37,642 bases of DNA from a virus: the UHGV virus genome UHGV-0029174; one strand, given 5' to 3'. The notes below the pieces were generated by a model that saw nothing but the letters and a program-made list of their open reading frames with translations, had not been told where the DNA came from and made no database searches. The translations under genes and the position numbers were made by a program. Positions 35,925-36,703 of the stretch are shown here, piece after piece (the stretch's first letter is position 1; every line of letters begins with the position of its first letter).

Positions 35925-36203
35925 TTAATCGTTAATGACCTGGCCCATACGCCCGCGATATTTGCGCATACGTGGATCGACATATTCAGGCCAATGCATA
36001 TCCGGTTTTCTTTGCAGTGGGTAAAAACTTGCCTGCCAGTTGTCGAACCATATTTGCTTTGCGTACAGGTCACTAAATCTTTTTGCGAATCTCTCTGCTG
36101 AATCTCCATTAATGAAAAAGCCCGCTGCTATTTGCTCGCGGGCATCGTCAATCACCTGAACCATTGTCCGTGGCGGCGGCGGCGATTTTAAATAATCATC
36201 CAT
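35925..36203 (-). CDS. hypothetical protein (92 aa)
   Basis: Track ORF. Confidence 0.5.
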   Translation of the reverse strand: MDDYLKSPPPPRTMVQVIDDAREQIAAGFFINGDSAERFAKRFSDLYAKQIWFDNWQASFYPLQRKPDMHWPEYVDPRMRKYRGRMGQVIND

Positions 36204-36396
36204 CGTTAATCACCTCGTCATGCGCGTTGGCTCCCTCACCATGTTTGTTGTGCCACGCTCGATGGCATATCGGGCAAAGCCACATAACATCTAGCGGCTT
36301 GTCATAATCGCAATGGTGCGCGTGTACGCGGTCGCTTCTTCCGCATACTTCGCAAGGTTGCCTAATTAGTTTGCCGCATTTAATCGCATATTTCAC
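36196..36396 (-). CDS. HNH endonuclease core (66 aa from GTG; stop-to-stop frame extends to 36531)
   Basis: CEVCG...HAHHCDYDKP...LCPICHRAWH is a classic HNH motif with Cys pairs. Confidence 0.6.
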   Translation of the reverse strand: MKYAIKCGKLIRQPCEVCGRSDRVHAHHCDYDKPLDVMWLCPICHRAWHNKHGEGANAHDEVINDG

Positions 36397-36493
36397 TAAC
36401 CATCCAGCACGATATTTCTTCTTATTATTAAGCCTCCATTTTTTCCCCGCCTTATTAAAACTATTTCTCCCTTGCTCTGTTTTTCTATACTCG

Positions 36494-36703
36494 TCATAAT
36501 ATCCATATGAGTTGTATCTCTCTATATTCTTTTATTTTATCTTTGTTATCTCTCCTGTATTTGTCGTTATACTTATTTTTACAGTTCTTGCATTTATTAC
36601 AATGACCGTCACGTTTTGAGTTATCTTTATGAAAACAAGAAAGGGGCAATAATGCCCCACATTTTATACACTGTTTACAACGCGTAGATTCTGTGTCGTC
36701 CAT
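36494..36703 (-). pseudogene. Cys-rich zinc-ribbon-like ORF (~70 aa), probably the N-terminal part of the adjacent HNH gene separated by a +1 frame change in an A-rich tract
   Basis: MDDTESTRCKQCIKCG...CNKCKNCK; frame ends at 36494 while the HNH frame is open from 36531; frames differ by +1 in an AT-rich stretch. Confidence 0.35.

What the first reader, a model, noticed from the sequence alone, without database searches (positions are those of the whole stretch)
36196..36703. HNH endonuclease gene apparently split by a +1 frame change in an A-rich tract
A zinc-ribbon-like ORF (36494..36703) and an HNH-core ORF (stop-to-stop 36196..36531) are in frames offset by +1 and overlap in an AT-rich stretch. 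Joined, they would give a roughly 165-aa HNH endonuclease. This is either a recent pseudogene, a sequencing indel, or programmed frameshifting. The HNH core alone has only a GTG start.
Basis: seen in the sequence. Interest (0 to 1): 0.45.

Follow-up and report, generated by a model that had tools for sequence, protein, structure and literature searches.

The report
Frameshifted phage HNH endonuclease pseudogene
A small phage nuclease gene has lost two bases, which cuts it into two out-of-frame pieces, while every known relative keeps it whole, so this is an ordinary, recently broken gene (or an isolated sequence error) and not programmed frameshifting.

Summary
On the minus strand, a 69-aa zinc-ribbon ORF (36703..36494) and an HNH-core reading frame (open 36531..36196, +1 frame) overlap in an A-rich stretch. 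Joined, they match one protein family end to end (phrog_2340, E = 1e-40). The window is an mEp021-like (mEpimmI) temperate coliphage, and the gene lies between ssb and an abc2-like anti-RecBCD gene. The break is a 2-nt deletion at window 36519: relatives read TATAGAGAAAGATAC and the window reads TATAGAG--AGATAC. Four close DNA alleles (93.5-95.7% identity), all seven members of the closest 90% protein cluster and about twelve more distant loci carry a single uninterrupted 167-187-aa gene. None shares the split. There is no +1 slippery codon, no stimulatory Shine-Dalgarno (SD) site or RNA structure, and no Rfam element. All zinc and catalytic residues survive, and pN/pS of the repaired gene is 0.2-0.35, so the lesion is very recent. 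No other conserved gene in the window is frameshifted, which argues against a generally indel-prone assembly, but reads are needed to exclude an isolated error. Verdict: a young pseudogene of a freestanding, probably mobile, HNH endonuclease. It is a known kind of event and of low interest.

The parts
36494..36703 (-). Upstream remnant ORF, 69 aa: 62 residues matching the intact protein (zinc ribbon CxxC...CxxC plus the start of the K/R/E-rich linker), then 7 out-of-frame residues (IQLIWIL) and TGA.
   Evidence: It matches phrog_2340 positions 5-62 (E = 5e-9) and phrog_1035. Residues 1-62 align with the intact homologues P0001 and P0087-P0092.
36518..36520 (-). Lesion site: two A's are missing next to A36519. 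Relatives read GAA TAT AGA GAA AGA TAC; the window reads GAA TAT AGA G--AG ATA C.
   Evidence: DNA alignments with L004, L020, L036 and L037. The blastn indel list shows the same AA deletion against all four.
36196..36531 (-). The +1 frame, open from stop to stop. It carries the rest of the helical linker and the HNH (beta-beta-alpha-Me) core. The portion homologous to intact genes is 36199..36519.
36196..36396 (-). The only ORF with a canonical start inside the HNH frame (GTG, 66 aa). It has only a weak GGA-type Shine-Dalgarno (SD) site and lacks the helix that precedes the core in natural short relatives.
   Evidence: It matches phrog_11793, a 65-aa family (E = 2.5e-19). Natural stand-alone relatives are 97-120 aa.
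36643..36658 (-). Terminator-like hairpin GGGGCATTATTGCCCC followed by a T-run, inside the 5' part of the gene. It is invariant in close relatives.
   Evidence: The equivalent site is annotated as terminator T3 in mEp554. Its function was not tested.
36675..37124 (-). Upstream neighbour, ssb. Its 3' end overlaps the endonuclease start by 29 nt.
   Evidence: Homologues are annotated as SSB, with PF00436 hits.
35925..36203 (-). Downstream neighbour, an abc2-like anti-RecBCD gene. Its ATG overlaps the HNH stop (ATGGATGA) and it has its own GAGGTG Shine-Dalgarno (SD) site.
   Evidence: Annotated as anti-RecBCD in mEp021 and MagusPhagus.

Best explanation
This is a freestanding phage endonuclease gene made of an N-terminal zinc ribbon, a lysine/arginine-rich helical linker and a C-terminal zinc-bound HNH core. 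It sits as an optional cassette between ssb and abc2 in an mEp021-like temperate coliphage. It has lost two adenines (AAA to A at window 36519). Ribosomes that start at ATG 36703 read 62 residues matching the intact protein, then 7 wrong ones, and stop at TGA 36494, so the HNH domain in the +1 frame is not made. The gene is therefore a very young pseudogene. Shown here: the deletion, its absence from every relative sampled, and the lack of any other damage. Inferred: that the deletion is real in the DNA rather than an assembly error, that the intact protein is a mobile (homing-type) nuclease, and that its loss fits the usual decay of such selfish genes once they have no empty sites left to invade.
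For: Only the window lacks the AA among five close alleles at 93.5-95.7% nucleotide identity. All 7 members of the closest 90% protein cluster are intact at 167-180 aa and all read KEYRERYNSYGYY. About 12 further loci are single-frame by tblastn, and 302 of 511 phage records cover at least 80% of the joined protein in one place. The joined protein matches phrog_2340 end to end. The family's invariant residues (C12, C15, C38, C118, C121, H130, H131, C144, H148, H152) are all kept in the window. pN/pS of the repaired gene against relatives is 0.30-0.35 overall, compared with 0.22 between two intact alleles, so there is no decay beyond the indel. All large conserved genes of the window (J, tape measure, terminase, portal, head genes) align in one frame with mEp021. 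The other indels against relatives lie in divergent or intergenic stretches. The one checked in detail, a second AA difference at 35915, is intergenic and is shared with L021. The cassette is cleanly absent from mEp010, where ssb is followed directly by abc2.
Confidence: 0.72

Rival explanations
1. Sequencing or assembly artefact: the real DNA has AGAGAAAGATAC, the gene is intact, and two A's were dropped during base-calling or consensus building.
For: The lesion is a short deletion inside an A-run in a 50%-A, low-complexity stretch. Nothing else in the gene is damaged, and its codon-level divergence looks like that of a functional gene. The exact truncated products are not on record in any other assembly.
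Against: No other conserved gene in the 37.6-kb window is frameshifted. The second AA difference in the neighbourhood (35915) is intergenic and shared with another relative. Losing 2 of 3 bases in a short homopolymer is not a typical error for the common platforms; this last point rests on general knowledge and was not tested here.
Confidence: 0.2
2. Programmed or tolerated +1 ribosomal frameshifting within 36497..36531 produces some full-length nuclease, for example as a way to keep a toxic enzyme at a low level.
For: The frames are offset by +1 and overlap by 35 nt. The overlap contains rare E. coli codons (AGA, AUA x3) and one AAA-G at which tRNA-Lys could re-pair in +1 (plus general knowledge of codon usage).
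Against: No homologue has the split; all are single-frame. No P-site codon next to a rare codon or next to the stop can re-pair in +1: UAU-A, GAG-A, CUC-A and UUA-U all fail, read directly from the sequence. The only SD-like AGGAGA lies about 20 nt upstream of AAA-G, too far for a prfB-type effect. There is no RNA structure (z = -0.72) and no Rfam element.
Confidence: 0.03
3. A functional split: the 69-aa zinc-ribbon protein and/or a 66-aa mini-HNH started at GTG 36396 are made and act separately or together.
For: The zinc-ribbon ORF alone matches Lar-like restriction-alleviation and other small phage zinc-ribbon families (phrog_5558, E = 2.7e-9). The HNH ORF matches a 65-aa family (phrog_11793). 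HNH-only relatives of 97-120 aa exist.
Against: No relative has this two-gene arrangement at these boundaries. The GTG ORF has a weak SD and lacks the conserved NPKK..AH..AI..GKL helix found in the natural short forms. The split has one single, unique origin.
Confidence: 0.05

Closest known systems
Intact orthologues in mEp021-group (mEpimmI) coliphages and E. coli prophages: mEp554 gp24 (WWQ70634.1, annotated 'endonuclease VII'), WP_213061628.1, WP_412916876.1, HGV3577261.1
   Same: Same position between ssb and abc2. Same architecture of zinc ribbon, helical linker and HNH core. Protein identity is 57-92%, and up to 95.7% at the DNA level for the closest alleles.
   Different: All of them are a single ORF of 167-187 aa. 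The window alone lacks two A's and is split.
PHROG family phrog_2340 ('endonuclease'), widespread in Vibrio, Staphylococcus, Escherichia and other phages
   Same: The joined protein matches the profile end to end (E = 1.1e-40). There are 511 phage records with tblastn matches.
   Different: Family members are one polypeptide. The family has no significant Pfam-A or NCBIfam model, no relative among solved structures by sequence, and, as far as was found here, no biochemical characterisation.
Small zinc-bound HNH nicking/cutting enzymes: Gme HNH (4H9D), phage T5 SciA (9QGX), phage GVE2 HNH (5H0O)
   Different: Sequence identity is only 16-25% and Z stays below 5. Those enzymes lack the N-terminal zinc ribbon and the long helical linker.
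Degenerate homing endonuclease genes, for example the truncated I-TevIII of phage T4 compared with the intact RB3 version, and the invasion-decay-loss cycle of homing endonuclease genes (Goddard and Burt 1999). Both are recalled from general knowledge, not checked here.
   Same: An optional, intergenic nuclease cassette that is present, absent or broken among otherwise collinear phages.
   Different: Homing activity and a target site have not been shown for this family.
prfB-type programmed +1 frameshifting (RF2; CUU UGA C with an upstream SD). Recalled from general knowledge.
   Same: Only the +1 offset between two overlapping frames.
   Different: There is no conserved split, no slippery codon at the stop, no correctly spaced SD and no conservation of the site.

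Membership tests
phrog_2340-type phage endonuclease (zinc ribbon + linker + HNH) | End-to-end match of one polypeptide to the family profile | tested here: met
   The joined protein matches profile positions 5-169 of 171 (E = 1.1e-40). As it stands in the window, the match is spread over two frames.
phrog_2340-type phage endonuclease (zinc ribbon + linker + HNH) | N-terminal CxxC...CxxC ribbon with conserved F and DG | tested here: met
   C12, C15 and C38 are invariant; C41, F24 and G33 are conserved in at least 90% of 61 homologues. All are present in the window's frame A.
HNH / beta-beta-alpha-Me nuclease superfamily | Beta-hairpin plus helix fold around a metal site | tested here: inconclusive
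HNH / beta-beta-alpha-Me nuclease superfamily | Catalytic His at the end of strand 1 and His/Asn ligands in the helix, plus Cys pairs for structural zinc | tested here: met
   Invariant H130, H131, H148, H152, C118, C121 and C144 in 61 homologues. The window reads PCEVCG..HAHHCDY..WLCPICHRAWH.
HNH / beta-beta-alpha-Me nuclease superfamily | Pfam HNH (PF01844) at or above the gathering score | tested here: not met
   14 bits against a cut-off of 21.4, E = 0.059. No Pfam family reaches significance across 61 homologues.
Programmed +1 ribosomal frameshift site | The frame split is conserved in homologues | tested here: not met
   Every homologue found is single-frame.
Programmed +1 ribosomal frameshift site | A slippery P-site codon able to re-pair in +1 next to a stop or hungry codon, with a stimulator (SD at about 3 nt, or an RNA structure) | tested here: not met
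   Reading the sequence directly finds no such codon next to AGA, AUA or UGA. The SD-like AGGAGA is about 20 nt away. RNA folding gives z = -0.72 and there is no Rfam hit.
Pseudogene (recent) | Reading frame broken relative to intact orthologues at the same locus | tested here: met
   A 2-nt deletion found only in the window.
Pseudogene (recent) | The lesion is real in the DNA and is not an assembly error | not testable with these tools
   No reads are available. The indirect evidence is that no other frameshifted conserved gene occurs in the window.
Freestanding homing endonuclease gene | Presence/absence polymorphism at one intergenic site among collinear genomes | tested here: met
   mEp010 has ssb followed directly by abc2. 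The cassette fills exactly that gap in the window, L020 and mEp554. Four of the seven related phages lack it.
Freestanding homing endonuclease gene | Cleavage of the cassette-free allele and copying into it | not testable with these tools
   This needs biochemistry or co-infection crosses.

The most novel reading that the evidence does not exclude
The 2-nt deletion is real and is partly bypassed. Low-level +1 shifting in the rare-codon-rich overlap (AAA-G, AGA, AUA) would yield traces of full-length nuclease, so the frameshift would act as an attenuator of a toxic selfish enzyme. Alternatively, the freed 69-aa zinc ribbon has taken on a function of its own, such as a Lar-like one.
Probability: 0.04. 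Interest if true: 0.45.

Novelty: already known. Interest (0 to 1): 0.1.

Why it matters
It matters little beyond correct annotation. The two ORFs should be annotated as one frameshifted endonuclease pseudogene, not as two hypothetical proteins and not as a recoding site. There are two minor points of value. First, it may be a snapshot of an optional phage nuclease cassette at the very first step of decay. Second, this widespread family (phrog_2340; 511 phage records with matches) still has no Pfam or NCBIfam model, no solved structure and no known function.

Tried and rejected
1. Exact look-ups of the 69-aa and 66-aa products in 153 billion gene positions found nothing, so no second assembly shows the same split.

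2. A junction DNA pattern that allowed a 0-2 nt gap was scanned in viral and genome collections. It returned only chance matches in unrelated organisms (confirmed by tblastn).

3. The Pfam, NCBIfam and PDB sequence searches found no significant family or solved relative.

4. My first guess was a 1-nt insertion in the AAAA run at 36533. It rested on a chance similarity between frame B (KNIERY) and the KKNIERY of mEp554. The close alleles place the lesion at 36519 instead, so I dropped it.

5. My second guess was loss of one AG unit from an (AG)n repeat. The relatives read AGAGAAAGA, not AGAGAGAGA, so I dropped that too.

6. I suspected that a second AA deletion at 35915 pointed to a systematic error. 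It is intergenic and shared with L021, so it is a natural variant.

7. The mEpimmI genome paper (PMC11893012) does not mention HNH, homing or frameshift.

Full report
Searches show two reading frames on the minus strand.
- Frame A starts at ATG 36703 and stops at TGA 36496..36494. It encodes 69 aa: MDDTESTRCKQCIKCGALLPLSCFHKDNSKRDGHCNKCKNCKNKYNDKYRRDNKDKIKEYREIQLIWIL.
- Frame B is offset by +1. It is open from 36531, just after TAA 36534..36532, to TGA 36198..36196.
- Frame B encodes ...YNSYGYYDEYRKTEQGRNSFNKAGKKWRLNNKKKYRAGWLVKYAIKCGKLIRQPCEVCGRSDRVHAHHCDYDKPLDVMWLCPICHRAWHNKHGEGANAHDEVINDG.
- The only canonical start in frame B is GTG 36396, which gives a 66-aa ORF.
- The overlap zone is 49% A, and local GC is about 30% against 46% for the whole window.

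**Context.** The window is 85-90% identical over most of its length to the mEp021 group of temperate coliphages: mEp021, mEp010, mEp013, mEp044, mEp515, mEp554 and MagusPhagus. PMC11893012 describes this group as mEpimmI. All genes in this part of the window lie on the minus strand in the order erf, ssb (36675..37124), the split gene, an abc2-like anti-RecBCD gene (35925..36203), and then small ORFs.

**The two pieces are one gene.**
- The joined protein matches the 171-position profile phrog_2340 ('endonuclease') over positions 5-169 with E = 1.1e-40. The upstream ORF covers positions 5-62 and the downstream ORF positions 112-169.
- Intact one-frame genes occupy the same position in mEp554 (annotated 'endonuclease VII'), E. 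coli RM9245 and E. coli N1286.
- tblastn of the joined protein finds 511 phage records, of which 302 cover at least 80% of it in one place.

**The lesion.** A search of 5.8 billion proteins returned P0001 (169 aa, 88% identical). Its contig L004, the metagenome contig L020 (OLIA01000008.1), the E. coli assembly contig L036 (GCA_047886955.1) and the 53-kb Logan contig L037 give four DNA alleles that are 93.5-95.7% identical to the window.
- All four read GAA TAT AGA GAA AGA TAC (E-Y-R-E-R-Y).
- The window reads GAA TAT AGA G--AG ATA C.
- Two A's are therefore missing next to A36519, which places the downstream part in the +1 frame.
- With the two bases restored, the gene encodes 169 aa, the same length as its closest relatives.

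All seven members of the 90%-identity cluster around P0001 are intact at 167-180 aa and read KEYRERYNSYGYY. They come from at least seven different samples or assemblies. Every other homologous locus fetched is single-frame; only the window gives two tblastn segments in different frames.

**Programmed frameshifting is not supported.**
- The split is not conserved in any relative.
- Within the 35-nt zone where a +1 shift could give a full-length product (36531..36497), no P-site codon next to a rare codon (AGA, AUA) or next to the stop (UUA UGA C) can re-pair in +1. This is read directly from the sequence.
- The one re-pairable site, AAA-G at 36532, is followed by a common GAA codon.
- The only SD-like AGGAGA lies about 20 nt upstream, which is too far for a prfB-type stimulator.
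- The RNA does not fold better than shuffled controls (z = -0.72).
- No Rfam family matches.

**A functional two-gene split is not supported either.** No relative has such boundaries. The GTG ORF has a weak SD. It also starts inside the conserved helix (NPKK..AH..AI..GKL) that natural HNH-only relatives of 97-120 aa keep.

**Real mutation or sequence error?** This cannot be settled without reads.
- In favour of a real mutation, all large conserved genes of the window (J, tape measure, tail and head genes, portal, large terminase, NinG-like, Q-like) align over their full length in one frame with mEp021.
- Over the 4.4 kb that the window shares with L036, L037, L020 and L004, the AA at 36519 is the indel that breaks a reading frame known to be intact in the relatives.
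- The remaining indels fall in divergent or intergenic stretches.
- The one checked in detail is a second AA difference at 35915. It lies in the 12-nt abc2/next-gene spacer and is shared with L021, so it is a natural variant.
- In favour of an error, or of a very recent mutation, nothing else is wrong with the gene. All residues invariant in the family are kept. pN/pS of the repaired gene against relatives is 0.30-0.35, compared with 0.22 between two intact alleles.
- I put about 0.72 on a real, very young pseudogene and about 0.2 on an isolated artefact.

**What the intact gene is.** AlphaFold2 on the close homologue P0001 with 61 aligned sequences gives a confident model (pLDDT 92.8). It shows three parts:
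- a small beta-rich zinc ribbon (residues 9-38);
- a bundle of five helices (39-109);
- a strand-strand-helix unit (128-155) that carries CxxC, HH, C and H...H.

The gene is an optional cassette. In mEp010, ssb is followed after 15 nt by abc2, and the endonuclease gene fills exactly this gap in the window, L020 and mEp554. Four of the seven related phages lack it. E. coli RM9245 carries a second, distant copy between erf and ssb. The family is also modular, with linkers of very different lengths and with HNH-only forms. This is the usual behaviour of freestanding homing-type endonuclease genes. Their decay by frameshift is a well-known stage of their life cycle; that statement rests on general knowledge and homing was not tested here.

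**Verdict.** It is a single, unique 2-nt deletion in an otherwise intact, probably mobile phage endonuclease gene. It is not a recoding signal and it is not a conserved split.

Noticed in passing
window 20892..21395 (-), 29324..29851 (-), 30900..31427 (-): Three further freestanding endonuclease-like ORFs of 167-175 aa, all intact. They match the HNH endonucleases annotated in mEp021 and carry an IDH..NN..NLR motif. They sit between terS and terL, between the NinG-like and RusA-like genes, and next to a membrane-protein gene. The phage therefore carries four such cassettes, and only one is broken.
   Followed up: partly
window 36643..36658 (-): An intrinsic-terminator-like hairpin (GGGGCATTATTGCCCC followed by TTTCTTGTTTT) lies inside the 5' coding part of the endonuclease gene. 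It is invariant in the close relatives and is annotated as terminator T3 in mEp554. In these Nus-dependent phages it could make the genes downstream of ssb depend on antitermination.
   Followed up: no
L034 8828..9364 (MH706966.1 13860..14345): The published mEp021 record leaves the intact homologous ORF between ssb and the anti-RecBCD gene unannotated. Its N-terminus (MSNAEPLKICCTCG...) differs from that of the other alleles.
   Followed up: partly
L002 2468..3025 (E. coli RM9245 prophage): A second, distant paralogue of the same endonuclease family (about 30% identity) sits between erf and ssb and is annotated as a hypothetical protein. The family has therefore entered more than one intergenic site of the recombination module.
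   Followed up: no
window 35913..35924: The 12-nt abc2/next-gene spacer (GAGGTGTTATC before the ATG) is 2 nt shorter than in most relatives but identical to that of L021. This points to mosaic exchange with a different lineage just downstream of the broken gene.
   Followed up: yes
window 1..1112 (- strand, 3' part of the J-like tail fibre gene): The C-terminal part of the J homologue gives several overlapping tblastn matches to different parts of mEp021 J. This suggests internal repeated domains. The gene is cut by the start of the window.
   Followed up: no
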